Assembly (NCBI GenBank): GCA_016432445.1
Contig: CP066689.1
Location: 840,001-872,000 of the forward strand
From: Candidatus Saccharimonadota bacterium
GTDB taxonomy: Bacteria; Patescibacteriota; Microgenomatia; UBA1406; GWC2-37-13
Direction of reading: 5' to 3'
DNA length: 32,000 bases
Positions 9,267-32,000 of this stretch are shown here, one piece after another. The position numbers were made by a program, and so were the translations under genes. Each line of letters begins with the position of its first letter. Within the stretch, counting starts at the first letter, position 1. Under the pieces are notes generated by a model. The model ran no database searches, was not told the DNA's origin, and saw only the letters and a program-made list of their open reading frames with translations.

Positions 9267-10115
9267 TCAGAACAAGATTTCTTCAATGGATAATTTTTTT
9301 TTAGTTTTCAATAAGATTACTCCATCTCCTACGCTAATAAGATAGTAACCTTTTACTTTAGCCAATACTTCACCAACTTTATTTGACAAGTAGCTCTCTT
9401 GAAACTCAACTCTTTCCTTTTTTCGGTTGAAGGCAAATGTATTAGGATAGGGAGATTTTAAAGCCCGGACCAAATTAAAGATTTCTCTAGCGTTGTTTTC
9501 CCAAATTATTTTACCATCTTCTTTGTTCCTTTTTGGGGCATAAGTTGCATTATTTTCATTTTGTTTTTTACCTTTTAATCTTTTTTTCACCTTAGATATT
9601 TTTTTAACAACTTGAACCAGCAATTGTGCGCCTAGTTTAACTAAAGCTTTTTTAACGGTATTTATATCATCGTAATTACTTAAAGGTATTGTTTTTTGTA
9701 AGAGAATATCCCCGGAGTCCATGCCTTCATCTAAGTAGTGGACAGTTACTCCTATCTGTTTTTCATCCCGAATAATAGCCCAGTTAAGCGGGTGGTAACC
9801 TCGGTATTTAGGCAATTCCCCAGCATGAACGTTGATTGAACCAAATTGCGGGTAAAATATTATATTTTTAGGAAAAATTTTTGGGAATGAAGCAACAATC
9901 ATTAAGTCTGGTTTAATTAATTTCATTTTAGTAAAAAGTACTTGTGAGGATTGATAAACTTCCAAATCGATATTCCGTCTATTACATAATTGCTGTATAC
10001 CTTTAACATCGTAATTTTTAGGTACAATAACAGAAACTATTTTGAACCTATTATTTAAAAGTTCCTTTAAACATTTGTATCCATTATCTCCCCAGCCAAT
10101 AAATAATATTTTCAT
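9267..10115 (-). CDS. Formyltransferase (ArnA N-terminal domain / sugar N-formyltransferase-like)
   Basis: It has INVHAGELPKYRGYHPLNWAI plus SGD, the Asn/His/Asp catalytic pattern of formyltransferases. A C-terminal Fmt-like subdomain is present (ATYAPKRNKEDGKIIW...LVRALKSPYP). It lacks the tRNA-Fmt PDxxxGRG motif. Confidence 0.8.
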   Translation of the reverse strand: MKILFIGWGDNGYKCLKELLNNRFKIVSVIVPKNYDVKGIQQLCNRRNIDLEVYQSSQVLFTKMKLIKPDLMIVASFPKIFPKNIIFYPQFGSINVHAGELPKYRGYHPLNWAIIRDEKQIGVTVHYLDEGMDSGDILLQKTIPLSNYDDINTVKKALVKLGAQLLVQVVKKISKVKKRLKGKKQNENNATYAPKRNKEDGKIIWENNAREIFNLVRALKSPYPNTFAFNRKKERVEFQESYLSNKVGEVLAKVKGYYLISVGDGVILLKTKKKLSIEEILF

Positions 10116-10122
10116 AAAATCA

Positions 10123-11064: not shown

Positions 11065-11070
11065 ACTAAA

Positions 11071-19418: not shown

Positions 19419-20337
19419 TAAAAAATCAAAAACCTACATTGTTGGTCATAATGGACTAATAGGATCAGCTATTTTAAGAAAATACATTGGAGAAGGCTAC
19501 GGTAATTTACTCACTAAAACTCGTCAGGAACTCGATCTGACAAATCAGTGCAAAGTTGAGGAATTGTTTAAAAAAGAAAAACCGGACTACGTTATTTTGT
19601 CTGCAGCAAGAGTTGGCGGAATAAAAGCAAATATGACTTATCCGGCAGAATTCATATATGAAAATTTGATGATACAGAACAATGTTATTTGGTCTGCATT
19701 TAAGTATAAAATCAAAAAACTTATGTATATAGCCTGCGGCTGTGCATACCCGACGAACTCGACACAACCTATGAGAGAAGAGTATTTGCTTACCGGGCCA
19801 CCTGAACCAACGAATGAAGGATTCGCAATTGCAAAAATTGCCGGATTAAAGCTCTGTGAAAAAATATATACGGAGTACGGAATGAAGTTTGTATCATGCA
19901 TCCCTACAAACACTTACGGAGAAAATGATCACTTCGATGAATTAAGATCTCATGCAATTCCAGCTTTACTAAAAAAAATCCATAATGCAAAAAAGAGTAA
20001 CAGTCCAGCTATTACGCTCTTTGGTACTGGCAAAGCTGAACGTGAATTTATATATGTTGACGATATTGCTGAAGCTGTTTTTCTTCTTATGAATGTTTAT
20101 GAAAAAAATGAAGTTATTAATATCGGATCGGGAGAAGCTCTAAGAATTAAAGAATTAGCTCAAATTATCAGAAAAGTAGTCGGTTATTCAGGAAAAATAT
20201 TATATGATACGTCAAAACCCGATGGAATGCTAAAAAGAACACTCGATTCTTCGAAAATAAAACAGTTGGGATTTTCTTGCAGGGTACCTCTTCTTGAAGG
20301 CATCGAAAGAACCTATAATTATTTCCTACGGATATGA
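19411..20337 (+). CDS. GDP-L-fucose synthase / GDP-L-colitose synthase family (Fcl/ColC) 3,5-epimerase-4-reductase
   Basis: Motifs are YIVGHNGLIGSAI, LSAARVGGIKANMTYPAEFIYENLMIQNNVI, EPTNEGFAIAKIAG and IPTNTYGEND. I prefer the start at 19411 (MIDKKSK), which overlaps the upstream stop by 8 nt, over the track's start at 19354. Confidence 0.8.
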   Translation: MIDKKSKTYIVGHNGLIGSAILRKYIGEGYGNLLTKTRQELDLTNQCKVEELFKKEKPDYVILSAARVGGIKANMTYPAEFIYENLMIQNNVIWSAFKYKIKKLMYIACGCAYPTNSTQPMREEYLLTGPPEPTNEGFAIAKIAGLKLCEKIYTEYGMKFVSCIPTNTYGENDHFDELRSHAIPALLKKIHNAKKSNSPAITLFGTGKAEREFIYVDDIAEAVFLLMNVYEKNEVINIGSGEALRIKELAQIIRKVVGYSGKILYDTSKPDGMLKRTLDSSKIKQLGFSCRVPLLEGIERTYNYFLRI

Positions 20338-21590
20338 AAAATGTTGGAAAACGAAGCATCCTTTACATTGTCAATTTTTACGGTTCTCCGCCTCTCAACT
20401 ATTTCGAAAAATATTTAAATGAAAATAAGTCTACATATCTCACTATTATCAAATTACCAGCAGTACGGCCTTCAAAGAACAGAATTAATATTGACGCCTT
20501 TATTAAAGACGAAAAAGGCAATAAACACAACATAGATCTTAATCTTTTTTTTCCACTACCTAATTTTCTGGTTTTCATGGTTCAATATGTACTCAATTTT
20601 TTTATTCTTTTTATTCTCCTTTCAAAAATAAAAAGAAAGAAATTTAACATTATAATCGGCGAAACCAATTTCGGCGGAGCCAACGCGTATATTTTAAAGA
20701 AAATCGGACGGTGCGATTTTTCAATTTATTTTAACGGTGATATCTTACCAGATACACAATCGTCAAATAAATGTTTTTTTCTCCCTAATAACGAATCCTT
20801 TTTTTCGCCCTTTTTTAAATTTATCGATTCTATGTTGATAATGACTCAATATCTTTTAAGAAAAATGGGGTATGGAAACGATTTGATTTGGTTTGGTGAT
20901 AAAAAAATAGAGGAATGGGACTCTAAAAAAGGACTGGAAGCGCATAACAAAATCATATTTCACGGGATATTAATTGATTATAAAGAATACGAAAAATATA
21001 ACTCCGTGAAAAAAAATATGAATGATATTTGTTACTTAGGCAGAATAGACGATTATGTCGGTTTTGACATATTAATACCGAGCCTTGCTCTTATAAAAAA
21101 AATACTTCCCGGTATTAGAATGCATGTTATCGGAGGTAGTGTGGTCGGTATAGAAAAGTACCGAAATCTAGCAAAACAAAATAATGTGGAAGATAATATA
21201 AAATTTTACGGCTATGTTCCCAAAATGGAAGACGCTTATAATATTATGTCTCATTGCGCGTTAGGGTTGGCACTATATAAACCCGTTAAAGACAATGTTT
21301 CAATGTATACTAATCCCGGCAAGCCTAAAGAATATATAAAAGTAGGTCTACCTGTACTTCTTACCAAGGGCGGACCTGAAATAGGCCAGGAAATAGCAAA
21401 ATATAATGCGGGCGTCGAGGTTGATTTTGATAAGGAAAAAGTCACGGATGCAATAATTAAAATAATAAGTGACAACAATATTTATGTCAAACTTCAATCG
21501 GGCGTAAAAAGATATGCCCTTAAAGAAGACATTAACATACATTTTAAGGAGTTTTTTAAAAATCTGGAAAAATTACTCATTAAACATTGA
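20334..21590 (+). CDS. GT-B fold (GT4-like) glycosyltransferase with a hydrophobic N-terminal insert
   Basis: The C-terminal half reads ICYLGRIDDYVGFDILI...MHVIGGS...IKFYGYVP...PKEYIKVGLPVLLT, typical of the Glycos_transf_1 domain. It has an ATGA overlap with the upstream gene. Confidence 0.6.
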   Translation: MKNVGKRSILYIVNFYGSPPLNYFEKYLNENKSTYLTIIKLPAVRPSKNRINIDAFIKDEKGNKHNIDLNLFFPLPNFLVFMVQYVLNFFILFILLSKIKRKKFNIIIGETNFGGANAYILKKIGRCDFSIYFNGDILPDTQSSNKCFFLPNNESFFSPFFKFIDSMLIMTQYLLRKMGYGNDLIWFGDKKIEEWDSKKGLEAHNKIIFHGILIDYKEYEKYNSVKKNMNDICYLGRIDDYVGFDILIPSLALIKKILPGIRMHVIGGSVVGIEKYRNLAKQNNVEDNIKFYGYVPKMEDAYNIMSHCALGLALYKPVKDNVSMYTNPGKPKEYIKVGLPVLLTKGGPEIGQEIAKYNAGVEVDFDKEKVTDAIIKIISDNNIYVKLQSGVKRYALKEDINIHFKEFFKNLEKLLIKH

Positions 21591-21659: not shown

Positions 21660-24020
21660 ATGCGGATCGTAATAAATATAATTAAATTCATAAAGCACCA
21701 TAAATACATGTTTATGTCTATATTGGTGCTTGCACTTATATCTTATCTTAATATTCCCCCAAAAGGTTACCTGATCGGAGGAGGGGATTTCTATCAGAGA
21801 TCTTATCTAAGAGACAATTATTTTAATTTTTTCTTTACCTGGTCTGAAAAAATCGGCGTAGGACATATTTCCGATGTTCAATATGCCGTTTTTTTTCTTC
21901 CATTTTATATTTTGGATTTACTCGACAATGTGGCTGCACAACAGTTTTTATTTATGTTTATTTTTATATTTCTATCTTTCATAAGTTTCTATCTATCACA
22001 AAGGTACTTCGTTAATAATAACAGCGAAAAAAAATACAGCTATCTTTTTTCACTACTGTATGCAATAAATCCTTTTACTTTTTCTGTATTAAGAACATCT
22101 GCCGGATATCACCCTTTCTTTTTTCTCTATCCTTTTATCCCTTTATTTTTTGGCTTAATATACTCTTATTTAAAAAACGCACAAAATTATATAAATAAGG
22201 AGCTTGCTGTTTTTATTATTGTTAGTTTTTTCCTTTCTGTTTCATTCGGTAATTTCGCTTTCTTTATTTCCTTGTTTGTTTTTGTTTCTTTATTTTGTTT
22301 TTTTCTTATTTTAACTAATGAGGTTAATATTAGTAAAAAAACATTCTTAAAGTTTGCTGTCCTTTTGCTAAGCTTTATATTTTCCACTCTTTACAATGTC
22401 GCCAGCCAAATTCCGCTAATGCTTGTACTAAATCGCCAGATAAGTAACTCTGAAATACCATTGGCGGACATATGGAGTTGGATGACCTATCAAAGATTAT
22501 CTTTACAAACTCAAGTCCTTTTTAATACGGACTATGATAAAAGCGCAGTATTTCTTTTTAGTACAGTTCTGTTCATGCTGTTTATTGCGTCAATGATCTA
22601 TTATAAAAGCAGGTTGAGCCGCATTATGTCGATCCTTGCTGTTATATCAATATTCGTTACCTCTAAGGGGCTGGAAATTTTTCCTTCGTGGGTAGTAAAA
22701 CCTATCTTTACATTACCTTTAATTAATAGTTTAAGAACAGGTAATAAAAGCTACATCTTTCTTCCTTTTTTTATTTTAATCGTGCTCTTGTTATGTTATA
22801 GATCAACAAAAGAAACCATCGTTAAATACTTATTTATCCTATCTTCTATACTAATTATCTTATCTTGTTTCCCTTTACTCAACGGTAAAATTTTAACTAA
22901 TTATTCCCCCTATTACGCCAAAGACGAAAATTATTTGACTGCTAAATACACCTTTATCTTTCACCTACCAAAACCCTACGTAAACATTAATAAAGCTATA
23001 AATCCCAATGAACAGAATCGCATCCTTGTTTTGCCATATTCTGTAATTAACAGTGTGGGATGGATGAACTATACGAATTGGAAATATGTCGGAGTTGATC
23101 CTGTTATTTCCCTGGTGAATAAGCCTCTTGTCAATCCAAACTATTATCTATACCCATCGACCTGGAATTATGGAGAATTATGGAATCGGCAATCTGAAGA
23201 AGAGTCCCTTTGGATATTTCCATTTGCTTCGATCACGAACTCAAAATACATACTTTATCATAAAGATGTCGATCCTCAATTTATTGATCAAACAATGGAT
23301 AAGATAAAATACTACCAGAAACTTGGACTGATAAGTAAAATTCAAGAAAACAATTATTTTATATTTTATAAAATTAATGAAAAGTTTTTTGTCCCGCGGG
23401 TATATGTGCCAAAGAAAGTTACAGTAACTGATAAAAGAATAGAAGATTTCGCAGAACTACTTGGAAATGAAATTCAAACAAATGACTTTGCCGTATATTT
23501 TACTGAACAAAATTTAGGAAAAAATACTTCACTTCTAGAGAAAACTTCTTCTTCTGTAAAATCTAAATTTGAATTTAAAAGAATTAACCCTGTTAAGATT
23601 CGCATTGCTGCTCATAATGTAAAAGATTCATTTCCCATAATTTTTTCGGAGGGATTCCACGACGAATGGAAGGCTTACCTTGTCAAAACTGAAAAAAGAA
23701 CTAGCTTGCCGGCGGGAAACATCTTGGAAACCCTCACAGGAAAAGGTATCGGAGAAGATAAACACTTTAAGGCTAATGGATATGCAAATTCCTGGATCAT
23801 CAATCCTGTTGAACTCTGCATTGACACGAAGTTTTGCCGTAAAAATTCTGATGGAACCTACGACATGGAGCTGATTTTCGAATTTCATAGGCCGCAGATG
23901 TTATTTTATACCGGTCTAATTATCAGCGGAATCACTCTCTTGATAAGCCTTATTTATTTAATAAGAAAGAACATGTTAAAAAAAATTCGTAAAAATCACA
24001 GAAATGTTCCCAAAGTATAA
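21660..24020 (+). CDS. Polytopic GT-C-like membrane protein (YfhO/AftD-DUF3367-like)
   Basis: 786 aa. The N-terminal portion is multi-TM (about 400 aa) and the first loop is acidic (IGGGDFYQRSYL). The C-terminal soluble domain carries EWKAYLV and NGYANSWIINP and ends in a TM anchor. This repeats the WKAY-plus-terminal-anchor layout of the YfhO-like protein at 11071-13449. Confidence 0.5.
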   Translation: MRIVINIIKFIKHHKYMFMSILVLALISYLNIPPKGYLIGGGDFYQRSYLRDNYFNFFFTWSEKIGVGHISDVQYAVFFLPFYILDLLDNVAAQQFLFMFIFIFLSFISFYLSQRYFVNNNSEKKYSYLFSLLYAINPFTFSVLRTSAGYHPFFFLYPFIPLFFGLIYSYLKNAQNYINKELAVFIIVSFFLSVSFGNFAFFISLFVFVSLFCFFLILTNEVNISKKTFLKFAVLLLSFIFSTLYNVASQIPLMLVLNRQISNSEIPLADIWSWMTYQRLSLQTQVLFNTDYDKSAVFLFSTVLFMLFIASMIYYKSRLSRIMSILAVISIFVTSKGLEIFPSWVVKPIFTLPLINSLRTGNKSYIFLPFFILIVLLLCYRSTKETIVKYLFILSSILIILSCFPLLNGKILTNYSPYYAKDENYLTAKYTFIFHLPKPYVNINKAINPNEQNRILVLPYSVINSVGWMNYTNWKYVGVDPVISLVNKPLVNPNYYLYPSTWNYGELWNRQSEEESLWIFPFASITNSKYILYHKDVDPQFIDQTMDKIKYYQKLGLISKIQENNYFIFYKINEKFFVPRVYVPKKVTVTDKRIEDFAELLGNEIQTNDFAVYFTEQNLGKNTSLLEKTSSSVKSKFEFKRINPVKIRIAAHNVKDSFPIIFSEGFHDEWKAYLVKTEKRTSLPAGNILETLTGKGIGEDKHFKANGYANSWIINPVELCIDTKFCRKNSDGTYDMELIFEFHRPQMLFYTGLIISGITLLISLIYLIRKNMLKKIRKNHRNVPKV

Positions 24021-26886
24021 AAATATTTTAATCCTTTTTACAACCAGCATACTTTTAAGTTTGATGCTTCCCTTTATAGAGTCGGATAAATTCGAACTAA
24101 AAGTATCAGATAATAAGTTCCAATCCAATCATCAAGAATATACTATTGGGCCTGATATATCCCGTTATCACATTAATTATGTGAACACTAATGTCGTTTT
24201 AAAAACCGCGCTCAATGATTCTAAATATGGATTAATTAGTTTTCTTAATGACATAAAAGCCACGGTACTGCCCGCACAGAACCTTTCGATCTCGTTTGAA
24301 AGAATAGCGGAATTGGGAACATGGAGTAAAAAGTTATCAATAATTAATAACGCTCATAATTCTAAAGAACTTAAATCTTGGTGGATTTCTTATCAGACCA
24401 CTCCTTTAACCGTCTTTAATAATGATAAATTTCGCAGTTGGGAATCTATTCTTGCCAGATATTTAATTTCAACTGAAAAATACATAAATCATATTAAATC
24501 GCAGGACAATAAAATGCAAAGTGCACTAGCAATTATATTGAGACTCTCTCTTAATGAAAACCAATTGCAAATAAATAAAGATATTTATAATTTGCAACGA
24601 GACTATAAGGATAAAGAATATCTACAGATTATTTCTGATAGTATTTTTAAAGATTTGAACTCCCAGGTAGATCAACTCATATCGAGTTATAGTCCAATCA
24701 CACACCATTACGATCTCTCTGAATTAAGAAAAAGTAAAGAATATGGAATTTATAACGTTTATATCTCTAAGCCAGATAACATAAAATTTGATTGGGGAAA
24801 TGCGCTATTGCAGGGAAAAAATTCCAAGTTCAAGACGCTTTCTAAAGATTCCCAACCTTATAATGGCTTGTTATTCGACGGTGTTGAAATCACTCCAAAT
24901 TTAGACAAGCTGACTTTAAACTTCACCGATATCAAAAATTCTGCTCGGGACACCTGGTTAGCGGAAATCGATCAAGCTAATCAACAATACAAATACGTTT
25001 TATATCTAAAGGATATCAATCCAAAGATCGGTTATATGCTAAATCTGATTTACCAAACTATTTATCCTTTGGATTTTGTCATAGAAGAATTGCAAGGTTC
25101 ACTTGCAGATAATAATCAAGTCGTCTGGAATAAAAGTAATATGATCTGGAAAGATGTTATCCTATCTCCAAGTAACCCAAGTCATTATCTTAGAAAAGTG
25201 TCTTTTACTTTTAATGACGAATTGATCCGACAAAGAATCGTAATAGAGTCGGAAAAACCGTTACCTGAAGATTTTTTCGACCATTTCAAGTTGCAAATAT
25301 TCCCCGTCTTTGAATCCTACGTAACATTAAAACAAATCGCTAAACTGGAAAACCTGAAAGCAGAAATCAAAATCAAAGAGATAAAGAAAAATATTTACTT
25401 AGCAAATCTTAAGAATTTAACTTTAAATGAAGAGAAAAAAGTTAAGTCATCATTAGGACTTACATACTGGATAACAAAAAAAACCAATTATCAAAACGCT
25501 ACATCTTTAACAATTGTATTTTGGCCGCCTATCGCTATAAAGTCTATCTTATTTATATTAATAATAATTATAGTAATAAAGTTAGTTTATGAAATTTATC
25601 TAAAGCAAATATTAGAAAATAATAAGGAATTGTATTTGCCTTTAACAAATAAACTAAAGAATTATCTGAACGTTATAGCTAGAATTATATCTGCACTTAC
25701 CAACTCAGTATATTTCAGAATAAAAGAAATTAGGTTAATACTGTTCATAATGATTTTAACCGGTATTTTGATAGATATCGGCCTCATCAAATTTGGACTA
25801 ACTAAACGAGACTCATTACTCACGGTCTACATCGTTGGCGTTCTCTGGTTAATAACTCTAGTAGGATATCGTGGAAAAACCGCACTGTCTTTTTATATGT
25901 CCTTAGTTCTTTTCATCTTGTTTTCGATATTACTCATGATAAATCTTCCTATAATAGGTGAAAGACTCTTGACATGGTCTTATGTCTTTTTATTGTTTGG
26001 AAGCATTCATGCTTTAGGTGAAGTTTGTGTAAAAAGAAATCTCATTAACGAAAACAATAATCCTAACATATCAGTTACTCCAAAATTATTATCATTATTA
26101 TCTATAATGCAAAAATGTTTAAAGTATTCTTTACACCTGTTGATTAACTTATTGATAATAGCATTAAAATATCTTAAGTATTACTTATATTTACTGGATA
26201 AATTATTAACATTCATGTTGAAAAGCCTTGATGCGTTCATACACCTAATAACTGCTAAGTTATTACATTCTCATTTATATATTCTTTATAAACGTATGAA
26301 GGTAATTATTCACAAGTCTGTAATAAACATCCCCTGGTTTTCTAACCCCATTTTTTTCCAAAATATCCAGATCCATCTTCGCAAATCATTTCAGTATTCG
26401 ATAAAAAGCACTACTTGGCTCCTCACTGCTACAGTAATCATTTATCTTGTTGTTTTACTTATAAATGCAGGCTTTAAGTCTCTTAATCTTCGTAAAGTTA
26501 AAGAATCGCGTAATCCGGTCGTTCAAAAATTTGAACCAAGAATCGTTTACTACGCAACAAAAGTAATCATAAAAGGAAAAAATTTCGGATGGAAAAATGA
26601 AGGTGAAGAACTCATCAGTAACTTCGGCAAGGTCTATACTGACTTTTGGTCGAATGAGAAAATTATATTTACTATACCGCTTCATTGGAAAACTGGCGAA
26701 GTTTCGTTACGGTTGGAAAAGCCCAATATCTGGCAAGGAAAACCGATCATCTCCAAAAGTAAAATAATTACGCTTTGGCTGCTTCCAATCACCGCATCTT
26801 TTACGAATGCCGACACGGAGTTTTATGAACAGATGTCGTTGACAGATAAAGAAACGCAAAAAATAAACGGCTATGAATGGCACTAA
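24004..26886 (+). CDS. 960-aa membrane protein of unknown function with a C-terminal IPT/TIG-like beta-sandwich
   Basis: It has an N-terminal signal anchor followed by about 480 aa with no motif I recognise. A TM cluster spans roughly aa 505-830 and includes a Leu-rich amphipathic stretch (LHLLINLLIIALKYLKYYLYLLDKLLTFMLKSL). The C-terminus reads PVVQKFEPRIVYYATKVIIKGKNFGW...IIFTIPLHWKTGEVSLRL (from nt 26515). The start overlaps the upstream gene by 17 nt. Confidence 0.4.
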   Translation: MFPKYKNILILFTTSILLSLMLPFIESDKFELKVSDNKFQSNHQEYTIGPDISRYHINYVNTNVVLKTALNDSKYGLISFLNDIKATVLPAQNLSISFERIAELGTWSKKLSIINNAHNSKELKSWWISYQTTPLTVFNNDKFRSWESILARYLISTEKYINHIKSQDNKMQSALAIILRLSLNENQLQINKDIYNLQRDYKDKEYLQIISDSIFKDLNSQVDQLISSYSPITHHYDLSELRKSKEYGIYNVYISKPDNIKFDWGNALLQGKNSKFKTLSKDSQPYNGLLFDGVEITPNLDKLTLNFTDIKNSARDTWLAEIDQANQQYKYVLYLKDINPKIGYMLNLIYQTIYPLDFVIEELQGSLADNNQVVWNKSNMIWKDVILSPSNPSHYLRKVSFTFNDELIRQRIVIESEKPLPEDFFDHFKLQIFPVFESYVTLKQIAKLENLKAEIKIKEIKKNIYLANLKNLTLNEEKKVKSSLGLTYWITKKTNYQNATSLTIVFWPPIAIKSILFILIIIIVIKLVYEIYLKQILENNKELYLPLTNKLKNYLNVIARIISALTNSVYFRIKEIRLILFIMILTGILIDIGLIKFGLTKRDSLLTVYIVGVLWLITLVGYRGKTALSFYMSLVLFILFSILLMINLPIIGERLLTWSYVFLLFGSIHALGEVCVKRNLINENNNPNISVTPKLLSLLSIMQKCLKYSLHLLINLLIIALKYLKYYLYLLDKLLTFMLKSLDAFIHLITAKLLHSHLYILYKRMKVIIHKSVINIPWFSNPIFFQNIQIHLRKSFQYSIKSTTWLLTATVIIYLVVLLINAGFKSLNLRKVKESRNPVVQKFEPRIVYYATKVIIKGKNFGWKNEGEELISNFGKVYTDFWSNEKIIFTIPLHWKTGEVSLRLEKPNIWQGKPIISKSKIITLWLLPITASFTNADTEFYEQMSLTDKETQKINGYEWH

Positions 26887-26971: not shown

Positions 26972-28522
26972 ATGACAACCTCTACTAAGACAACTAAAAA
27001 AAAAATCGTATTGTTTGCGGCAAACACTAGGTACGTGGGGCCTCCGTTGGGACTACTTTCAATTACGAAACTTCTTGATTTAAAAAAATACGATGTCAAA
27101 ATTATTACACAAAATGAATATCCCGACTGCGAGAACGCTCTGGTAAAAGAGTGCAAAGGCGCAATATGTCTCGGTATCTCCGTAATGTCTGGGTTTCCTC
27201 TTAAAGCTGCAAAAAGAGTCTCGCAAAGAGTTAAAGCAAAATATCCAAAATTGCCAATTGTATGGGGAGGGTGGCTAACTACCACATTGCCTGAAGAAAG
27301 TTTGAAGCCTTCTTATGTCGATTATGTCTGCATGGGCCAGGGTGAAAGGTTATTCAGTCAGCTTATCGACGTAATCGATTCACGTAATTTTAAAGATTTA
27401 AATAAAATACCCCGACTTGGATACAAAAAAGGCTCAAAAATATTTTTGAGTAAAAGGATCGGGACCGATGACATTGATAGCCTACCTGATTTTGATATGG
27501 ATTTGATTAAATGGGAAAATTATCTTGAAATTACGGACTTCGGAAAAAGAGTTATTCGAATGACAACAAGTTATGGATGCCCCCACAGATGCTCATTCTG
27601 TTGCGAACCTTTAAACTCGACAAGAATTTGGAAAGCACTATCAGCCGAAAGAGTCATCAACTATATTAAAAAATTGAAAGAAAAAGTGGACTTTGACGGT
27701 CTTACAATTGTAGACAGTAATTTTTTTGTAAGCGAAGAGAGAACCATAAAGATATTCAAAGGCATACTAGACAGTAAACTAAATATTAAAATAGGACAGG
27801 TCAATGGCAGAACGAATATTCTGGTAAGATACGCTCCTTCAACATGGAGACTTCTTAAAAAGGCCGGTTTATATAATATACTGGTCGGAGCAGAGTCGGG
27901 TAATGAAGAAATAATGACCTTCATTAACAAAGATGCAACAGTCGAGGATACTGTAAAATTGGCAAAAATTTGTACTAAATACAGCGTGCAGATGCTGGCT
28001 TCGATGATCGTTGGATTGCCTACTGAAAGATACTTAAACGACAAGGAAAAGGCATTTCAGGAAGATCTAAACGGAGTTATAGATTTGTATCATAAAATAT
28101 CACCGGTCGGATTACAGCATCAATTAATAGTTTTCGCCTTTGGGCCTTTACCTTTTTCTCCTTTATATAACAGATCTATAGAAATGGGATTTAAACCGCC
28201 TGTCGATATCGACGGCTGGGCAAACTATGCGCTAAGAAATGTTCGCGTTCCGTGGATACCGAAAAAAGGGTTCAGTAAAGTAGAGGTATTAAATTACACT
28301 ACAATGGCAATTGCCATGGATCGCTCAAATTTATTTTCTTCTTTTCCACCCTCAATAAATATGTTAATCAAGCCTACTCTTGCTATATTTAAAAAAATTG
28401 GTGAGTGGAGATTCCGAACTAAATTCTTAAGTTTTCCTCTGGACTTATGGCTTTTTTATTCTGGTATGTATGTATTTAATGAAATTAATAAAATATTTAA
28501 AATAGTACGTTCTACGAGATAA
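26972..28522 (+). CDS. Radical SAM enzyme with an N-terminal cobalamin-binding-type domain (class B-like)
   Basis: The N-terminal Rossmann-like region reads KKIVLFAAN...LPIVWGGW...CMGQGERLF. The cluster motif is CPHRCSFC (27578-27601). 516 aa. Confidence 0.8.
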   Translation: MTTSTKTTKKKIVLFAANTRYVGPPLGLLSITKLLDLKKYDVKIITQNEYPDCENALVKECKGAICLGISVMSGFPLKAAKRVSQRVKAKYPKLPIVWGGWLTTTLPEESLKPSYVDYVCMGQGERLFSQLIDVIDSRNFKDLNKIPRLGYKKGSKIFLSKRIGTDDIDSLPDFDMDLIKWENYLEITDFGKRVIRMTTSYGCPHRCSFCCEPLNSTRIWKALSAERVINYIKKLKEKVDFDGLTIVDSNFFVSEERTIKIFKGILDSKLNIKIGQVNGRTNILVRYAPSTWRLLKKAGLYNILVGAESGNEEIMTFINKDATVEDTVKLAKICTKYSVQMLASMIVGLPTERYLNDKEKAFQEDLNGVIDLYHKISPVGLQHQLIVFAFGPLPFSPLYNRSIEMGFKPPVDIDGWANYALRNVRVPWIPKKGFSKVEVLNYTTMAIAMDRSNLFSSFPPSINMLIKPTLAIFKKIGEWRFRTKFLSFPLDLWLFYSGMYVFNEINKIFKIVRSTR

Positions 28523-28525
28523 CCT

Positions 28526-29311
28526 ATGACTCAAAACCTACAACAATACCCCGACCTACTACAATATTTAAATATTTATTATAATAACCGTTATACCAAA
28601 AGAATCGAAAAAATAGTGTTTTCAATACTAAGGAAACATGCAAAGAAACTAAAGAAAAAATTAAGTATCTTAGATTCTGGTTGCGGAGTAGGATATTTCT
28701 CCAAACGCGTTCTAGAGCAATTGCCTAAAGAGGTAAAAAAAATTGTCGGCATAGATATAGAAGAATGGGTTGATAAAACGCTTTTTAAGAATAACAAATT
28801 CGAATTCATAAAAGCGGATGCCACTTCTACTAAAAAAAAATTCCATTCATCAATATTTGATATTATTGTCTCTAATGACGTCATGGAGCATGTCGAAAAC
28901 GACTCAGAGTATATAAAAGAGTGTTCAAGATTAATAAAAGATAATGGTATTTTCATATTGATAACACCAAATATTGAACGTTTTACCCAGCTATTACTTT
29001 CTATCTTCTCAAAAAAAATCATGAAGTTTCCTAAAACAACTGGTGTGGAGTTAGTCAATGGCAAAGAAATTCATCATGTCCATTTAAGAGAATACAATAA
29101 AATTAATTTGCAAAAAATAATTAATAAATACTTTCCTTTTTCTTTATGGATTCCTTTTTTTGTAGGTATTAAGATTCCTGGACTAAATTTTGTAGGCAGT
29201 TATCATTTGAAAATTAATAGACTGCCTTTTTTAGAAAAACACACTAATCATTTCTTAGTTGTATGCTCCAAAAATTTACCAATAATCAGTAAATTAAAAA
29301 CAATTTATTAA
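28526..29311 (+). CDS. Class I SAM-dependent methyltransferase
   Basis: Motif I is ILDSGCGVGYFS. The post-motif region DIIVSNDVMEHV is typical of Methyltransf_11/23-like proteins. It starts 3 nt after the upstream stop. Confidence 0.8.
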   Translation: MTQNLQQYPDLLQYLNIYYNNRYTKRIEKIVFSILRKHAKKLKKKLSILDSGCGVGYFSKRVLEQLPKEVKKIVGIDIEEWVDKTLFKNNKFEFIKADATSTKKKFHSSIFDIIVSNDVMEHVENDSEYIKECSRLIKDNGIFILITPNIERFTQLLLSIFSKKIMKFPKTTGVELVNGKEIHHVHLREYNKINLQKIINKYFPFSLWIPFFVGIKIPGLNFVGSYHLKINRLPFLEKHTNHFLVVCSKNLPIISKLKTIY

Positions 29312-29349
29312 GCTTGAAAATATAGATTTAGTAATGTAATATTCTTGTT

Positions 29350-29565
29350 GTGAGTAAAAATTCAAATATAAAGAAAGTCGTTTTAGAGAAGGCAAAATGC
29401 ATAGGGTGTGCAACCTGTGTAGTCCTTTGTCCAGAAGTTTTTTCTTTCAATGATAGCGAAACCATAGCTGTAGTAAATGATAAAGCTGTTGAAACTACTG
29501 ATTGTGAAAAAGTCAGATCTGCAGTCCAAGCTTGTCCATCAGAGGCTTTACTAATAAAAGAATAA
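29350..29565 (+). CDS. Small single-cluster 4Fe-4S (or 3Fe-4S) ferredoxin
   Basis: 71 aa with a GTG start. It has CIGCATCVVLCP (29398-29433) plus a distal ...VQACP, the pattern of mono-cluster ferredoxins. The stop lies 1 nt before the next ATG. Confidence 0.8.
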   Translation: MSKNSNIKKVVLEKAKCIGCATCVVLCPEVFSFNDSETIAVVNDKAVETTDCEKVRSAVQACPSEALLIKE

Positions 29566-29566
29566 T

Positions 29567-31225
29567 ATGCAACAATTATTAAAAGATAGCCGAACATTAG
29601 AGCTAACTATCGATCACAAAAAAAGTATAGTAAAAATAACTGATAAGGGAAAATGTGATATCGCTTTTGTTACCCGACCTTCAGAACATGGAGAATTTAT
29701 ACCTTTTGCGGAAATATCATTATCCGCCTACGTCAGATATAAGGGTTTTAATACAACAGTAATTGATACCAATCCTGTAATAGAAACTGCTCCAACAGCC
29801 GTCGTTACTGTCAATGATAAGGATTATCAGGCTTATTTTGAATATGTGAAAAATACTCTTATTGAGTTAAATCCAAGGTACATAGGAATCGGTACTTTCA
29901 CCAGCGATTATGATTTTGTCATCAACTTTGCCAGAAGAATAAAAAGATATGTTAATGCCAAAATCATCGTCGGTGGAGTTCATTCAACTGTAATACCTGA
30001 AGATTTCATTTATGAAAGATCCCCTATAGATATTGCCGTCATTGGTGAAGGAGAATTGACATTAGAAGAAATATTAAAGCTTGACGAACTGAGTCTTAAT
30101 AACTTAAAAAAAATAAAAGGTATTTGTTATTTTGACCAGAAACAAAAAAAGACTATCACGACAGAAAGACGTGAATTAATTAAAGACTTATCAATACTTC
30201 CCATGCCTGCCTATGAGGATTTGGATATGACTTTTTATGCGAAACCCAAAAAAAGAGTCATCGGATATGCATATTATTCAGTTGTTCCAGTTTACTCTGG
30301 AAGAGGTTGTCCTTTCCGATGTAATTTTTGCGCCGCCAACAGTGTCTGGGGTAAAGGATTATCCCGTAATCATGCCGTCGATAGAATAATTGATGAAATA
30401 CAAATGCTTGTTGAAGAATACAAAGTAGATGCTATTTATATGATTGATGATACTTTTACTTTAAGCAAAGAAAGAGTTTTTGAATTTTGTGAAAAAATTA
30501 AACCTTTAAATATTGTCTGGGCGGCTCAAACTAGAGTAAACTGCATAAACGAAGAAATGATCAAAAGAATGAAAGATGCCGGCTGCACTCAGCTTACCTT
30601 TGGAGTTGAAACAGGATCTCAAAGAATGCTAAATCTCACCAAAAAAGGAACGACTGTTCAACAGGTACGTGATGTTTTCAAATGGTGCAAAAAACACAAT
30701 ATGAGAACATTTGCCAATATGATGTTTAATCTTCCTGATGAAACAGAAGAAGACGTAAAGTTAAGCTATGAGCTTTATAAAGAAATTAAGCCTGATGATT
30801 TTGGAATGGGTCTAACCGTAGCTTACCCCGGAACTGAACTTTATAATCAATATTTTAAAGGTAAGTTTGATAAAAGCGAGTATCATCTTTTAGCCAGAGC
30901 GCGATCCTTCGGAGCAGGCCGATTCAAGCTGGCTAGACATAACTTAGATCCTCAAGAGCTACTGGTGGATTTTAGAATTAATCTAAAATTACAGCATCTA
31001 TTTCCTTTATCAGCAAGAATTATTTTTTCAAAGGAATACAGGGATATGATTAAAAGATCTTATTATAAAAAGGATTATATAAAAAATATTATCAGTGATC
31101 TACCAAATGTTCTTGTAAGATCATCGGGAACGCTTTTTTATAATGTAATAAAAATCTTCCCCAAGGTCATTAGACAGCCGGTTATTGTTCTTGCTAACAA
31201 CGTCGGACTAAAATTCGCTAACTAA
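29567..31225 (+). CDS. Radical SAM enzyme with an N-terminal cobalamin-binding-type domain (class B-like), second copy
   Basis: Motifs are YIGIGTFT...KIIVGGVH...VIGEGELTLEEIL, followed by CPFRCNFC (30308-30331). 552 aa, with an extra ~90-aa N-terminal extension. Confidence 0.8.
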   Translation: MQQLLKDSRTLELTIDHKKSIVKITDKGKCDIAFVTRPSEHGEFIPFAEISLSAYVRYKGFNTTVIDTNPVIETAPTAVVTVNDKDYQAYFEYVKNTLIELNPRYIGIGTFTSDYDFVINFARRIKRYVNAKIIVGGVHSTVIPEDFIYERSPIDIAVIGEGELTLEEILKLDELSLNNLKKIKGICYFDQKQKKTITTERRELIKDLSILPMPAYEDLDMTFYAKPKKRVIGYAYYSVVPVYSGRGCPFRCNFCAANSVWGKGLSRNHAVDRIIDEIQMLVEEYKVDAIYMIDDTFTLSKERVFEFCEKIKPLNIVWAAQTRVNCINEEMIKRMKDAGCTQLTFGVETGSQRMLNLTKKGTTVQQVRDVFKWCKKHNMRTFANMMFNLPDETEEDVKLSYELYKEIKPDDFGMGLTVAYPGTELYNQYFKGKFDKSEYHLLARARSFGAGRFKLARHNLDPQELLVDFRINLKLQHLFPLSARIIFSKEYRDMIKRSYYKKDYIKNIISDLPNVLVRSSGTLFYNVIKIFPKVIRQPVIVLANNVGLKFAN

Positions 31226-31247: not shown

Positions 31248-32000
31248 ATGAAAATAGTCAAGAAATTATATGAATATTTTCCTTTAATCTTACTTTTAAT
31301 AGGTGGTTTTTGGTTCCGTTATGTTGGAATTGTCAAAAATCTTTCATTTTGGAATGATGAAATCCATACGGCTATTTTTTCAAGAGGAATCTTATGGTAT
31401 GGTAAACCTGTTACGGAAATTGGTACCGGCACGGGTCTCTATCAGCTACCTTTGTATTATATTACAGCTTTATCTTTTAAAATTTTTGGTATTTCTGAGT
31501 TTGCAGCTCGGATACCTTCAGTCATTGCAGGAACGTTCTTAATCGCCATTGTATTTTTTATAACAAAAAAAATTATCAGTACAAAAGAAGCTTATATTGC
31601 ATCCTTTTTAATTGCTTTTTCCCAAATTCAACTTGCCTGGTCTACTCAGCTTCGTCCTTACATCTGGATTGAAATATTTACATTTATCGTAATGTTTCTT
31701 TGCTACCGTAACATAACAAATAAAGTTAAGATCATTGATAAATCTATACTTATAGCTATTCTCGTGGCATTAACTGCCTCTTTATTTCATGGAACCGGCT
31801 TGATAAATATATTCTTAGTAGCGACAACGATTTTCTTTAAAAGCATAATAAACAGGAAATATTCATACCTTATATTAATAATACCGTTTGCTGTAGTTTC
31901 CTCGTTTATCTTTTATTTTTCTTTAAACAAAATTATCCTTAGTATGCCTTGGATATGGATGATTAGATTTGATACCTTGCATTACCAAGTTTTCTTAAAA
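31248..32000 (+). CDS. ArnT/PMT-like (GT39/GT83-type) GT-C membrane glycosyltransferase, N-terminal 251 codons (the gene runs off the right edge)
   Basis: It is absent from the ORF track because it is open at the edge. My translation from the ATG at 31248 gives MKIVKKLYEYFPLILLLIGGFWFRYVGIVKNLSFWNDEIHTAIFSRGILWYGKP...FAARIPSVIAGTFLIAIVFFITKK... It has serial TM helices and an acidic DE motif in the first loop. The track ORF at 31303-31542 lies in another frame inside it. Confidence 0.65.
   Translation, partial: MKIVKKLYEYFPLILLLIGGFWFRYVGIVKNLSFWNDEIHTAIFSRGILWYGKPVTEIGTGTGLYQLPLYYITALSFKIFGISEFAARIPSVIAGTFLIAIVFFITKKIISTKEAYIASFLIAFSQIQLAWSTQLRPYIWIEIFTFIVMFLCYRNITNKVKIIDKSILIAILVALTASLFHGTGLINIFLVATTIFFKSIINRKYSYLILIIPFAVVSSFIFYFSLNKIILSMPWIWMIRFDTLHYQVFLK

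What the first reader, a model, noticed from the sequence alone, without database searches (positions are those of the whole stretch)
26972..31225. Ferredoxin-supplied pair of cobalamin-type radical SAM enzymes plus a SAM methyltransferase, embedded between GT-C glycosyltransferases
Seen in sequence: four genes are packed with gaps of 3, 38 and 1 nt. The 516-aa and 552-aa proteins each have an N-terminal Rossmann-like domain of the B12-binding type (IVWGGW...GQGERLF; IIVGGVH...GEGELTLEEIL) followed by CxxxCxxC (CPHRCSFC, CPFRCNFC). Between them lie a class I methyltransferase (LDSGCGVGYFS) and a 71-aa mono-cluster ferredoxin (CIGCATCVVLCP...ACP). The cassette sits inside a same-strand operon. 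Two large membrane proteins lie upstream, and an ArnT/PMT-like GT-C starts 22 nt downstream. I see no short peptide ORF that could be a RiPP precursor. Established knowledge: class B radical SAM enzymes typically methylate unactivated carbon or phosphorus centres (GenK, Fom3 and TsrM-type chemistry) and need a low-potential electron donor. Inference: this is a self-contained, redox-supplied tailoring module. It would C-methylate, or otherwise radically modify, a sugar or the polyprenyl-linked glycan handled by the flanking GT-C enzymes. I know of no characterised envelope-glycan pathway with this gene set. If the host is a reduced-genome bacterium, it would also depend on scavenged cobalamin.
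Basis: partly seen in the sequence, partly recalled or inferred. Interest (0 to 1): 0.8.

Follow-up and report, generated by a model that had tools for sequence, protein, structure and literature searches.

The report
Radical SAM enzymes tailoring CPR surface glycan
A tiny-genome groundwater bacterium (Candidatus Roizmanbacteria) carries, inside a cell-surface sugar-chain operon, a ferredoxin paired with a B12-type radical enzyme plus two optional extra tailoring genes, which points to uncharacterised radical chemistry on envelope sugars.

Summary
Four tightly packed genes at 26972-31225 encode two B12-domain radical SAM proteins, a class I methyltransferase and a mono-cluster ferredoxin. They lie in a long same-strand glycan operon of a Candidatus Roizmanbacteria genome.

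- Glycan link: strong. All 13 related loci that I inspected are sugar or glycan loci. The upstream 786-aa protein has a GT-C fold. In one metagenome contig the rSAM-2 orthologue is fused in frame to a YfhO-type GT-C.
- Fixed quartet: no. Collinear sister operons lack either the methyltransferase or rSAM-1. The conserved core is ferredoxin, rSAM-2, PMT_2, MurJ, GT2, GT2. rSAM-1 and the methyltransferase are swappable accessory genes.
- Chemistry: unproven. Neither rSAM reaches the cut-off of any curated subfamily. Cobalamin binding is plausible, because the Rossmann domain aligns with those of the cobalamin binders OxsB, TokK and CysS. It is not shown, and the best solved-structure sequence match is AprD4, which does not bind cobalamin. 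C-methylation is therefore the default guess, not a result.

I found no literature describing such enzymes in envelope-glycan pathways. Verdict: a new variant of a known enzyme kind, of moderately high interest.

The parts
29350..29565 (+). Mono-cluster [4Fe-4S] ferredoxin (71 aa, CxxCxxC...CP). Conserved partner gene of rSAM-2 and its inferred electron donor.
   Evidence: Pfam Fer4_13 at 51.2 bits and Fer4_15 at 45.0 bits. A homologous ferredoxin ends 1-3 nt before the rSAM-2 orthologue in L001 and L007, and about 35 nt before the called start in L004 (overlapping the longer ORF by 11 nt). It also precedes it in the window and in L173. This holds although the ferredoxins of L001 and L007 are only 28-31% identical to the window's.
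29567..31225 (+). rSAM-2, a B12-domain radical SAM enzyme (552 aa) and the core catalytic gene of the module. Radical SAM cluster ligands are C248, C252 and C255.
   Evidence: PF02310 at 45.7 bits and PF04055 at 90.7 bits. No NCBIfam cut-off is reached. AlphaFold model has pLDDT 87.6, with a five-strand Rossmann domain followed by a TIM-barrel-like core. Foldseek top hits are MgmA, AprD4, TsrM, OxsB, CysS and TokK. The orthogroup is small: two representatives at 50% clustering score above 700 bits and the next scores 374 bits. An orthologue is fused to YfhO in L091.
26972..28522 (+). rSAM-1, a second B12-domain radical SAM enzyme (516 aa), 26% identical to rSAM-2. It is an accessory gene, absent from a collinear sister operon.
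   Evidence: PF02310 at 47.8 bits and PF04055 at 54.2 bits. It is absent from L173 with no tblastn remnant. Full-length orthologues at 44-86% identity occur in Microgenomates, WWE3 and a PVC-group genome, always in sugar or glycan loci.
28526..29311 (+). Class I SAM methyltransferase (261 aa). It is an accessory gene, absent from a collinear sister operon.
   Evidence: Methyltransf_31/11/23 at 57-61 bits. It is absent from L004 and present at 72% identity in L173. Related MT domains are fused to B12-rSAM relatives: P0266 (Methyltransf_23 at 82.5 bits, 29% identical to this MT, E=4e-10) and P0390.
31248..32000 (+). PMT_2 / ArnT-like GT-C glycosyltransferase. The window holds 251 aa; the host contig gives 499 aa. 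Part of the conserved core.
   Evidence: PF13231 PMT_2 at 37.9 bits. On the host contig the full gene is followed by MurJ, GT2 and GT2. The same order is found in L004 and L173.
21660..24020 (+). 786-aa polytopic membrane protein with a GT-C (AftD-like) fold. Its family recurs next to rSAM-2 orthologues.
   Evidence: No Pfam hit and only 13 homologues. AlphaFold pLDDT is 73. The nine best PDB matches are all GT-C enzymes, with AftD at E=1.6e-6. A family HMM hits proteins beside rSAM-2 orthologues in L004, L173, L005 and L091.
24004..26886 (+). 960-aa membrane protein of unknown function. Conserved in the sister operons.
   Evidence: No Pfam family above cut-off; a weak TIG hit (E=0.019) at residues 838-905. 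Orthologues are present in L004 and L173.
18234..21590 (+). Upstream genes of the same operon: an RfbH/ColD-like sugar 3-dehydrase (18234-19418), a GDP-L-fucose-synthase-like reductase (19354-20337) and a GT1 (20334-21590). Together they suggest a 3,6-dideoxyhexose branch.
   Evidence: Pfam DegT, Epimerase and Glycos_transf_1. Best NCBIfam hits are RfbH at 233.6 bits (cut-off 423) and GDP-L-fucose synthase at 393.6 bits (cut-off 500), both below cut-off. Orthologues of the reductase, and in L092 also of the GT1, flank rSAM-2 orthologues in L092 and L007.
6505..13449 (.). Second glycan gene set in the window, linked to rSAM-2 in other genomes: DegT (6505-7611 +), short GT2 (7612-8310 +), FemAB-like (8271-9260 -), formyltransferase (9267-10115 -), UDP-GlcNAc 3-dehydrogenase-like (10123-11064 -) and YfhO GT-C (11071-13449 -).
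   Evidence: Pfam; NCBIfam. Orthologues of DegT, GFO, GT2 and YfhO sit beside Fd and rSAM-2 in WWE3 (L001). In L091 they run directly into the YfhO::rSAM-2 fusion, whose YfhO part scores 476 bits against the window's YfhO.

Best explanation
This is the tailoring section of a cell-surface glycan operon of a Candidatus Roizmanbacteria (CPR) bacterium.

Conserved core (shown by synteny): a small [4Fe-4S] ferredoxin, rSAM-2, a PMT_2 GT-C glycosyltransferase, a MurJ-type flippase and two GT2 enzymes.

Proposed mechanism (inferred):
1. The ferredoxin reduces the radical SAM cluster of rSAM-2, and its corrinoid if it has one.
2. rSAM-2 cleaves SAM to a 5'-deoxyadenosyl radical.
3. That radical abstracts a hydrogen from an unactivated carbon of a sugar.

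The most likely outcome is transfer of a methyl group from methylcobalamin, giving a C-methyl branched sugar. A non-methylating outcome (dehydration, deoxygenation or rearrangement) is not excluded.

rSAM-2 orthologues sit next to GT-C enzymes, and one is fused to a GT-C. I therefore favour action at the cytoplasmic face of the membrane, on a polyprenyl-phosphate-linked sugar made by a GT2, before flipping and transfer by the GT-C.

rSAM-1 and the class I methyltransferase are independent, strain-variable accessory enzymes. Each adds a further decoration. They are not obligate partners of rSAM-2.
For: - Domains: both rSAMs pass the Pfam cut-offs for B12-binding and Radical_SAM.
- Structure: the rSAM-2 model (pLDDT 87.6) has five strands and five helices N-terminal to the rSAM core, the layout of class I B12-rSAM enzymes described in PMC12931638. 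Its best fold matches are MgmA, AprD4, TsrM, OxsB, CysS and TokK.
- Cobalamin hint: with the family profile, the Rossmann region aligns with the cobalamin binders OxsB, TokK and CysS. AprD4 aligns only over the rSAM core.
- Core and accessory genes: the window has rSAM-1, MT, Fd and rSAM-2. L004 has no MT. L173 has no rSAM-1. All three share PMT_2, MurJ, GT2 and GT2 downstream.
- Ferredoxin: it directly precedes the rSAM-2 orthologue in 5 of 8 loci, across Roizmanbacteria, WWE3 and a third lineage.
- GT-C coupling: L091 encodes one 1332-aa ORF that is YfhO (Pfam 83.7 bits) joined to an rSAM-2 orthologue at 56% identity. The last transmembrane helix is followed by KGRR, which would place the rSAM domain in the cytoplasm.
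- GT-C neighbours: the AftD-like 786-aa family lies next to rSAM-2 orthologues in 5 of 8 loci.
- Glycan context: every rSAM-1 and rSAM-2 orthologue locus is full of DegT, epimerase, GT1, GT2, methyltransferase and GT-C genes.
- MT link: class I MT domains are fused to B12-rSAM relatives in P0266 and P0390.
Against: - No chemistry is shown.
- The best sequence match among solved structures is AprD4 (E=7.7e-22; 9.7e-29 with the profile). AprD4 does not bind cobalamin and dehydrates a sugar diol.
- In a low-confidence alignment, the residue matching TokK's hydrophobic lower-axial Trp76 is Ser113, followed by the near-invariant Asp114. That is a polar setting, which the review associates with enzymes that are not radical methylases.
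- The YfhO fusion was seen on one metagenome contig only.
- Three of eight rSAM-2 loci have no adjacent ferredoxin.
- Several orthologues sit among soluble nucleotide-sugar enzymes (SIS, E1/transketolase pair, Fcl-like reductase). That fits a nucleotide-sugar substrate as well as a lipid-linked one.
- Neither rSAM has a transmembrane helix. Only the C-terminus of rSAM-2 is markedly amphipathic.
- CPR genomes are rich in glycan genes, and I could not compute a background rate for the association.
Confidence: 0.6

Rival explanations
1. The same enzymes act on soluble nucleotide-activated sugars in the cytoplasm, as ordinary steps of NDP-sugar biosynthesis and not on polyprenyl-phosphate-linked intermediates. 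One candidate substrate is the GDP-3,6-dideoxyhexose suggested by the upstream RfbH/ColD-like and Fcl-like genes.
For: - rSAM-2 orthologues lie directly between nucleotide-sugar enzymes. In L005 these are a SIS isomerase, an E1/transketolase pair, DegT, epimerases, and GHMP kinase with NTP transferase. In L092 they are the GT1, an Fcl-like reductase and an E1/transketolase pair.
- rSAM-1 orthologues follow DegT and formyltransferase (L009), follow DegT, rSAM-SPASM and WbqC (L174), or sit among dTDP-sugar genes (L175).
- Neither rSAM has a transmembrane segment.
- All characterised sugar-modifying B12-domain rSAMs (GenK, GenD1, Fms7, MoeK5, AprD4, OxsB; list) act on soluble small molecules (my knowledge).
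Against: - The in-frame YfhO::rSAM-2 fusion is hard to explain for an enzyme that acts on a freely soluble precursor. So is the recurrent adjacency to GT-C genes and not to the NDP-sugar genes in the Roizmanbacteria operons.
- The fusion is a single observation.
Confidence: 0.3
2. The 'B12-binding' domains do not bind cobalamin. One or both enzymes are AprD4-like radical SAM enzymes that dehydrate, deoxygenate, oxidise or epimerise a sugar and do not methylate it. The class I methyltransferase would then be the only methylating enzyme of the cassette.
For: - AprD4 is the best sequence match of rSAM-2 among solved structures, and its second-best fold match.
- The review PMC12931638 states that AprD4 and ArsL homologues sit in the B12-rSAM similarity network without binding cobalamin. 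It also states that non-methylating members cannot be told from methylases by sequence.
- A polar Ser-Asp pair aligns with the lower-axial position.
- The operon already encodes sugar deoxygenation genes.
Against: - The AprD4 similarity covers only the rSAM core. The N-terminal domain aligns with those of the cobalamin binders OxsB, TokK, CysS and MgmA, and passes the Pfam B12-binding cut-off.
- The NCBIfam AprD4 model scores 90 bits for rSAM-2 and 40 bits for rSAM-1, against a cut-off of 500.
- According to the review, every B12-rSAM network group with a characterised member includes C-methyltransferases.
Confidence: 0.25
3. The rSAM enzymes modify something other than a sugar. Candidates are a peptide or protein (RiPP-like maturation, or the protein acceptor of the PMT_2 enzyme), or a lipid such as the polyprenyl carrier or a membrane lipid.
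For: - The best NCBIfam similarities are to ApyD (RiPP), HpnJ (hopanoid), BchE (tetrapyrrole) and the ladderane lipid rSAM.
- PMT-type GT-C enzymes often glycosylate proteins (my knowledge).
Against: - All of those hits are far below the curated cut-offs, for example 175 bits against 750 or 578.
- There is no conserved short ORF. The only intergenic candidate is not conserved.
- None of the 13 related loci contains hopanoid, tetrapyrrole or RiPP-transport genes. All contain sugar-modifying and glycosyltransferase genes.
Confidence: 0.07

Closest known systems
Class B (cobalamin-dependent) radical SAM sugar C-methyltransferases of antibiotic pathways: GenK, GenD1/GntE, Fms7, MoeK5
   Same: They share the N-terminal B12-type Rossmann domain plus a CxxxCxxC radical SAM core. 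They act on unactivated carbons of sugars (list in PMC12931638). This is the chemistry I consider most likely here.
   Different: Those enzymes work on soluble secondary-metabolite intermediates in actinomycete gene clusters. Here the genes lie in a primary envelope-glycan operon of a CPR bacterium. They are coupled to GT-C enzymes, a flippase and a dedicated ferredoxin, and once fused to YfhO. I did not test sequence membership in those subfamilies, because none of them was among the NCBIfam hits listed.
AprD4 (PDB 6FD2), radical SAM 1,2-diol dehydratase of apramycin biosynthesis
   Same: It is the best sequence match of rSAM-2 among solved structures (E=7.7e-22) and a top fold match. Its substrate is a sugar, and it has an N-terminal Rossmann-like domain.
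   Different: AprD4 does not bind cobalamin. The similarity covers only the rSAM core. The NCBIfam AprD4 model scores 90 bits against a cut-off of 500. rSAM-2 is therefore not a member.
MgmA/QCMT (PDB 9CCB), TokK, CysS, TsrM, OxsB: structurally characterised class I B12-radical SAM enzymes
   Same: They have the same two-domain architecture and are the best fold matches (TM-score normalised to the target 0.43-0.71). The Rossmann region aligns with the family profile.
   Different: Sequence identity is 14-17% over the fold alignments. Their substrates are different (a protein glutamine, carbapenem, a thiopeptide tryptophan, a nucleoside). The window proteins have their own C-terminal helical domain.
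HpnJ and BchE, the large unresolved cluster of B12-radical SAM enzymes
   Same: They give the highest NCBIfam scores: 174.8 and 152.3 bits for rSAM-2, and 99.5 and 97.9 bits for rSAM-1.
   Different: The scores are far below the cut-offs (577.6 and 481.35). None of the loci contains hopanoid or bacteriochlorophyll genes.
Three-component lipid-carrier glycosylation systems: ArnC/ArnD/ArnT and CsbB/GtcA/YfhO
   Same: They use a GT2 that loads a sugar on polyprenyl phosphate, a flippase, and a GT-C that transfers the sugar outside the cell. In the Arn pathway a tailoring enzyme (ArnD) acts on the lipid-linked sugar at the cytoplasmic face (my knowledge). The window encodes GT2, MurJ, PMT_2, YfhO and a formyltransferase.
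   Different: No known system of this type includes a radical SAM enzyme or a ferredoxin. My literature searches found none.

Membership tests
Radical SAM superfamily | CxxxCxxC cluster motif and a PF04055 match above the gathering score | tested here: met
   CPHRCSFC in rSAM-1 and CPFRCNFC in rSAM-2. PF04055 scores 54.2 and 90.7 bits against a cut-off of 29.5. C248, C252 and C255 are invariant in 30 homologues.
Class B / B12-dependent radical SAM enzymes (class I architecture) | N-terminal B12-binding-type Rossmann domain (PF02310) preceding the radical SAM core | tested here: met
   PF02310 scores 47.8 and 45.7 bits against a cut-off of 32.1. The rSAM-2 model has five strands and five helices before the core, as the review describes for class I. 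The best fold matches are B12-rSAM enzymes.
Class B / B12-dependent radical SAM enzymes | Actual binding of cobalamin (base-off) about 11 A from the [4Fe-4S] cluster | not testable with these tools
   Only indirect evidence is available. The Rossmann region aligns with OxsB, TokK and CysS but not with the N-terminal domain of AprD4. AprD4 and ArsL show that domain hits do not guarantee binding.
Radical B12-rSAM methyltransferases (TokK- or Mmp10-like) | Hydrophobic residue at the lower axial face of cobalamin (TokK Trp76) and a hydrophobic residue between cobalamin and cluster (TokK Trp215) | tested here: inconclusive
   In the phmmer alignment, TokK W76 aligns with Ser113 and W215 with Ala257 of rSAM-2. 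The alignment confidence there is low, and register shifts of a few residues are possible.
Curated B12-rSAM subfamilies (HpnJ, BchE, ApyD, PhpK/Sden_1168, HpnR, BzaD, MgmA, KedN5, ladderane rSAM, TIGR04013, TIGR04295) | Whole-protein score at or above the NCBIfam curated cut-off | tested here: not met
   The best scores are 174.9 bits (ApyD, cut-off 750) and 174.8 bits (HpnJ, cut-off 577.6) for rSAM-2, and 99.5 bits (HpnJ) for rSAM-1. No model reaches its cut-off.
AprD4 family radical SAM diol dehydratases (NF033070) | Score at or above 500 bits with full-length alignment | tested here: not met
   The scores are 90.4 bits for rSAM-2 and 39.9 bits for rSAM-1, covering the core only. PDB alignments cover only residues 205-437.
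RiPP maturase radical SAM enzymes | A conserved precursor peptide gene next to the enzyme | tested here: not met
   The only short + strand ORF lying mainly in an intergenic gap (26873-26959) has no start codon and carries indels in the sister locus. None of the related loci shows a RiPP context.
GT-C glycosyltransferases (for the flanking membrane proteins) | Polytopic GT-C fold or a family HMM match | tested here: met
   The downstream gene hits PMT_2 at 37.9 bits (cut-off 26.1). The upstream 786-aa protein has no HMM hit, but all nine of its best PDB fold matches are GT-C enzymes (E from 1.6e-6 to 7.6e-3; model pLDDT 73). The 960-aa protein is not assigned.
Mono-cluster [4Fe-4S] ferredoxins (Fer4_13 / Fer4_15) | CxxCxxC...CP ligands in a protein of about 60-80 aa, with an HMM match above cut-off | tested here: met
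   CIGCATC...ACP is read in the translation. Fer4_13 scores 51.2 bits (cut-off 24.5) and Fer4_15 scores 45.0 bits (cut-off 22.4). Electron transfer to rSAM-2 is inferred from the conserved adjacency only.

The most novel reading that the evidence does not exclude
rSAM-2 and its ferredoxin work physically coupled to a GT-C glycosyltransferase, as the YfhO fusion suggests. Together they carry out radical C-H functionalisation, for example C-methyl branching, of a polyprenyl-phosphate-linked sugar at the inner face of the membrane, before the sugar is flipped and transferred. This would be the first radical SAM step known in lipid-carrier-dependent envelope glycosylation. rSAM-1 and the methyltransferase would act as strain-variable modules that diversify the surface of CPR bacteria.
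Probability: 0.3. Interest if true: 0.8.

Novelty: new variant of a known kind. Interest (0 to 1): 0.6.

Why it matters
Function is known for only a few of the more than 100 sequence groups of B12-type radical SAM enzymes (PMC12931638). All known sugar-modifying members belong to antibiotic pathways.

Here two uncharacterised families sit in envelope-glycan operons. These families are widespread in CPR bacteria and also occur in a PVC-group genome. One family has a conserved ferredoxin partner and, in one contig, a direct fusion to a GT-C glycosyltransferase.

If radical chemistry decorates surface glycans of these episymbiotic, reduced-genome bacteria, three things would follow:
- a new class of sugar structures, and a new enzymatic route to them;
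- a cofactor dependence (Fe-S clusters and possibly scavenged corrinoid) for building the cell surface;
- a mechanism of strain-level surface variation, through gain and loss of rSAM-1 and the methyltransferase, which bears on host attachment and phage evasion.

The finding also gives clear, testable constructs: the ferredoxin with rSAM-2, and natural operon variants that lack rSAM-1 or the MT.

Tried and rejected
- Genome-collection scan with the 30-sequence rSAM-2 alignment. Labelling their neighbours with single-sequence phmmer probes was too insensitive for GT families. It found glycan-type genes in about a quarter of loci and gave no usable background rate. I use it only to note that B12-rSAM paralogues often form arrays.
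- Metagenome scan with the single rSAM-2 protein. It found nothing. The repeat with the orthogroup alignment gave two true orthologues, L091 and L092.
- Telling a cobalamin binder from a non-binder by fold. MgmA, which binds cobalamin, and AprD4, which does not, score about equally. This approach is not decisive.
- Mapping TokK's Trp76 and Trp215 onto rSAM-1 and rSAM-2. The pairwise alignments disagree by about four residues, so I treat the result as inconclusive.
- RiPP precursor hypothesis. The 28-aa ORF at 26873-26959 is not conserved. Rejected.
- Hopanoid, bacteriochlorophyll and ladderane roles suggested by the best NCBIfam names. Rejected because the scores are far below cut-off and the contexts are wrong.
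- N-terminal extension of the WWE3 orthologue P0006 as a true methyltransferase domain. The similarity is only sub-threshold (Methyltransf_11 E=0.0096; BLASTP to the window MT E=0.025). I keep it as a hint. The clean MT fusions are P0266 and P0390.
- Promoter and terminator scan of 16500-32000. The counts equal those of the shuffled controls, so it is not informative on operon boundaries.
- Literature searches for B12-rSAM together with CPR glycosyltransferases, O-antigen, YfhO or undecaprenyl. They returned nothing relevant.

Full report
**Observation.**
- rSAM-1 at 26972-28522 (516 aa)
- a class I methyltransferase (MT) at 28526-29311 (261 aa)
- a 71-aa ferredoxin (Fd) at 29350-29565 (GTG start)
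- rSAM-2 at 29567-31225 (552 aa)
- gaps of 3, 38 and 1 nt

A PMT_2-type GT-C gene starts 22 nt downstream at 31248 and runs off the window. Both rSAM proteins pass the Pfam gathering scores for B12-binding (47.8 and 45.7 bits, cut-off 32.1) and Radical_SAM (54.2 and 90.7 bits, cut-off 29.5). The MT hits several class I models. The ferredoxin hits the single-cluster models Fer4_13 and Fer4_15. The two rSAMs are distant paralogues, 26% identical.

**Host and wider context.** A 100% identical protein is annotated in a Candidatus Roizmanbacteria genome, on a contig of 1.10 Mb. The host is therefore a CPR (Microgenomates) bacterium. Most of the rest of the 32-kb window is sugar or glycan genes: two DegT-type enzymes, epimerases, GT1 and GT2 enzymes, an FkbM methyltransferase, a formyltransferase, a UDP-GlcNAc 3-dehydrogenase-like enzyme and a YfhO GT-C. 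On the host contig the operon continues past the window with PMT_2 (499 aa), MurJ, GT2 and GT2.

**Flanking membrane proteins.**
- The 786-aa protein has no Pfam hit and only 13 homologues.
- Its AlphaFold model (pLDDT 73) has nine best PDB matches, and all of them are GT-C glycosyltransferases: AftD, STT3, AftA, AglB and ArnT. The phrase 'embedded between GT-C enzymes' therefore holds at the fold level.
- The 960-aa protein remains unassigned.

**What kind of rSAM enzymes these are.**
- No curated subfamily claims them. The best NCBIfam scores are ApyD and HpnJ at 175 bits, against cut-offs of 750 and 578, and BchE at 152 bits. For rSAM-1 the best score is about 100 bits.
- The rSAM-2 model is confident (pLDDT 87.6). 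It shows a five-strand, five-helix Rossmann domain in front of the radical SAM core, plus a C-terminal helical domain. This matches the class I B12-rSAM layout described in a 2026 review (PMC12931638).
- Foldseek ranks MgmA/QCMT, AprD4, TsrM, OxsB, CysS and TokK on top.
- The best sequence match among solved structures is AprD4. The review stresses that AprD4 does not bind cobalamin, and that non-methylating members cannot be recognised by sequence.
- With the family profile, AprD4 aligns only over the rSAM core. The Rossmann region aligns with the cobalamin binders OxsB, TokK and CysS.
- I read this as cobalamin binding being more likely than not, but unproven. Mapping the TokK lower-axial and stacking residues gave Ser113 and Ala257, from a low-confidence alignment. 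I treat that as inconclusive.

**The quartet is not a unit.** Three collinear Roizmanbacteria operons differ only by presence or absence of two genes:
- Window: rSAM-1, MT, Fd, rSAM-2.
- L004 (rSAM-2 83% identical): rSAM-1, Fd, rSAM-2, with no MT.
- L173 (85% identical): MT, Fd, rSAM-2, with no rSAM-1.

tblastn finds no remnants of the missing genes. All three share the upstream 786-aa and 960-aa proteins and the downstream PMT_2, MurJ, GT2 and GT2 genes. In a WWE3 genome the two rSAM orthologues lie on different contigs. The conserved core is therefore Fd, rSAM-2 and the GT-C/flippase/GT2 genes. rSAM-1 and the MT are independent accessory tailoring genes, a pattern typical of variable surface-glycan decoration.

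**Ferredoxin.** A homologous small ferredoxin directly precedes the rSAM-2 orthologue in 5 of 8 loci: the window, L004, L173, WWE3 L001 and L007. It ends 1-3 nt before rSAM-2 in L001 and L007. This holds although the ferredoxins of the two most distant loci, L001 and L007, are only 28-31% identical to the window's. Another B12-rSAM in L009 sits next to a ferredoxin and an FNR-like flavoprotein. A dedicated reductant role is a reasonable inference, but I did not test it.

**Link to glycans and to GT-C enzymes.**
- Every locus holding an rSAM-2 orthologue at 47% identity or more is a sugar or glycan locus. These are L001, L004, L005, L007, L091, L092 and L173. The same is true of the seven loci holding an rSAM-1 orthologue or close homologue (48-86% identical) that I inspected: L004, L008, L009, L010, L174, L175 and the window.
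- The 786-aa GT-C family recurs beside rSAM-2 in 5 of 8 loci.
- In metagenome contig L091 a single uninterrupted 1332-aa ORF joins a YfhO GT-C to an rSAM-2 orthologue at 56% identity. The YfhO part scores 83.7 bits in Pfam and 476 bits against the window's own YfhO. The join follows the last transmembrane helix and a KGRR motif, so the Fe-S domain would face the cytoplasm.
- That fused gene is preceded by orthologues of the window's DegT, GFO and GT2 genes at 6505-11064. The same gene set flanks Fd and rSAM-2 in WWE3.
- Among more distant relatives, class I methyltransferase domains are fused to B12-rSAM enzymes. P0266 has Methyltransf_23 at 82.5 bits, and its MT domain is 29% identical to the window MT. 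P0390 is a second case.

**Most likely mechanism.**
- Shown: domain content, the conserved Fd/rSAM-2/GT-C synteny, the accessory nature of rSAM-1 and the MT, and the glycan context.
- Inferred: the ferredoxin reduces the rSAM-2 cluster (and corrinoid). SAM cleavage gives a 5'-deoxyadenosyl radical, which abstracts hydrogen from an unactivated sugar carbon. Methyl transfer from methylcobalamin is the most likely outcome, because every characterised B12-rSAM group includes C-methyltransferases.
- Because of the YfhO fusion and the GT-C adjacency, I favour a polyprenyl-phosphate-linked sugar at the cytoplasmic membrane face as the substrate. This is analogous to tailoring of lipid-linked sugars in the Arn pathway (my knowledge).
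- A soluble nucleotide-sugar substrate is the main rival. Several orthologues sit among NDP-sugar enzymes, and neither rSAM has a transmembrane helix.
- A cobalamin-independent, AprD4-like reaction is the second rival.
- Peptide or lipid targets are unlikely. There is no conserved precursor, and no such pathway genes occur in any locus.

**Novelty.**
- The enzyme class is known.
- The rSAM-2 orthogroup is small and, in the named records, found in CPR genomes. Two representatives at 50% clustering score above 700 bits, and the next scores 374 bits.
- The rSAM-1 family is broader: Microgenomates, WWE3, Shapirobacteria, Parcubacteria, PVC group, Omnitrophota and Spirochaetes.
- I found no paper describing B12-type radical SAM enzymes in envelope-glycan pathways, with GT-C enzymes, or in CPR glycan loci.
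- I rate it a new variant of a known kind.

Noticed in passing
L091:5569-9567 (metagenome contig Ga0210017_1002403): One uninterrupted 1332-aa ORF fuses a YfhO GT-C glycosyltransferase to an rSAM-2 orthologue. It was seen on a single contig, so an assembly or sequencing artefact at the junction cannot be excluded.
   Followed up: partly
window 350-6487: Aspartate kinase, homoserine dehydrogenase, aspartate-semialdehyde dehydrogenase, a class I/II aminotransferase and an acetolactate-synthase-like ThDP enzyme (434 bits, below the 538 cut-off) sit next to the glycan genes. This is unexpected in a CPR genome with little amino-acid biosynthesis. The ThDP enzyme could be a YerE-like sugar-branching enzyme; that idea comes from my knowledge and was not tested.
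   Followed up: no
window 6505-13449: The gene set here is DegT, a short GT2, a FemAB-like acyltransferase, a formyltransferase, a UDP-GlcNAc 3-dehydrogenase-like enzyme and YfhO. It looks like a pathway for a 3-amino sugar (formylated or aminoacylated) that is loaded on a lipid carrier and transferred by YfhO. Four of the six (DegT, GT2, the GFO-family dehydrogenase, YfhO) are conserved beside rSAM-2 in both WWE3 (L001) and L091. The FemAB-like gene is conserved only in L001, and the formyltransferase in neither.
   Followed up: partly
window 18234-20337: The DegT-family protein scores best against RfbH (a sugar 3-dehydrase). By eye it has His where aminotransferases carry the catalytic Lys (SFYWGHHMTT). 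It is followed by a GDP-L-fucose-synthase-like reductase. Together they suggest a colitose-like 3,6-dideoxyhexose. The 327-aa ORF overlaps the DegT gene by 65 nt, so its true start is probably the internal Met at about 19411.
   Followed up: partly
P0277, P0279, P0280, P0342, P0389: These are giant proteins of 1,800-2,330 aa. Each gives three to five separate matches to rSAM-2, so they appear to be multi-module fusions of B12-type radical SAM domains.
   Followed up: no
P0289: This B12-rSAM relative carries an intein splicing domain inserted between the B12 domain and the radical SAM core.
   Followed up: no
L020, L010, L034, L035, L009: B12-rSAM paralogues often occur in arrays. L020 (an unclassified bacterium) has eight copies within 20 kb. 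L010 (a PVC-group genome) has four copies interleaved with GT1 and GT2 genes. L009 has three copies together with a ferredoxin and an FNR-like flavoprotein.
   Followed up: no
L005:7368-9379 and L092:13761-15764: An E1-dehydrogenase and transketolase-like ThDP enzyme pair lies next to rSAM-2 orthologues in two unrelated loci. Such pairs attach two-carbon branches to sugars in some antibiotic pathways (my knowledge). This may hint at branched-chain sugar chemistry.
   Followed up: no
L174:6248-7989: A radical SAM/SPASM protein and a WbqC-family protein lie directly upstream of an rSAM-1 orthologue, after a DegT gene.
   Followed up: no
P0006 residues 1-196 (WWE3 orthologue of rSAM-2; L001:10001-12160): An N-terminal extension of about 190 aa starts with an INIGCG motif and has sub-threshold similarity to class I methyltransferases (Methyltransf_11 E=0.0096). 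It may be a degenerate methyltransferase domain.
   Followed up: partly
window 24004-26886: This 960-aa membrane protein has no family assignment and a weak IPT/TIG-like C-terminal region (residues 838-905, E=0.019). It is conserved in the sister operons, and in L004 it is split into two ORFs.
   Followed up: no
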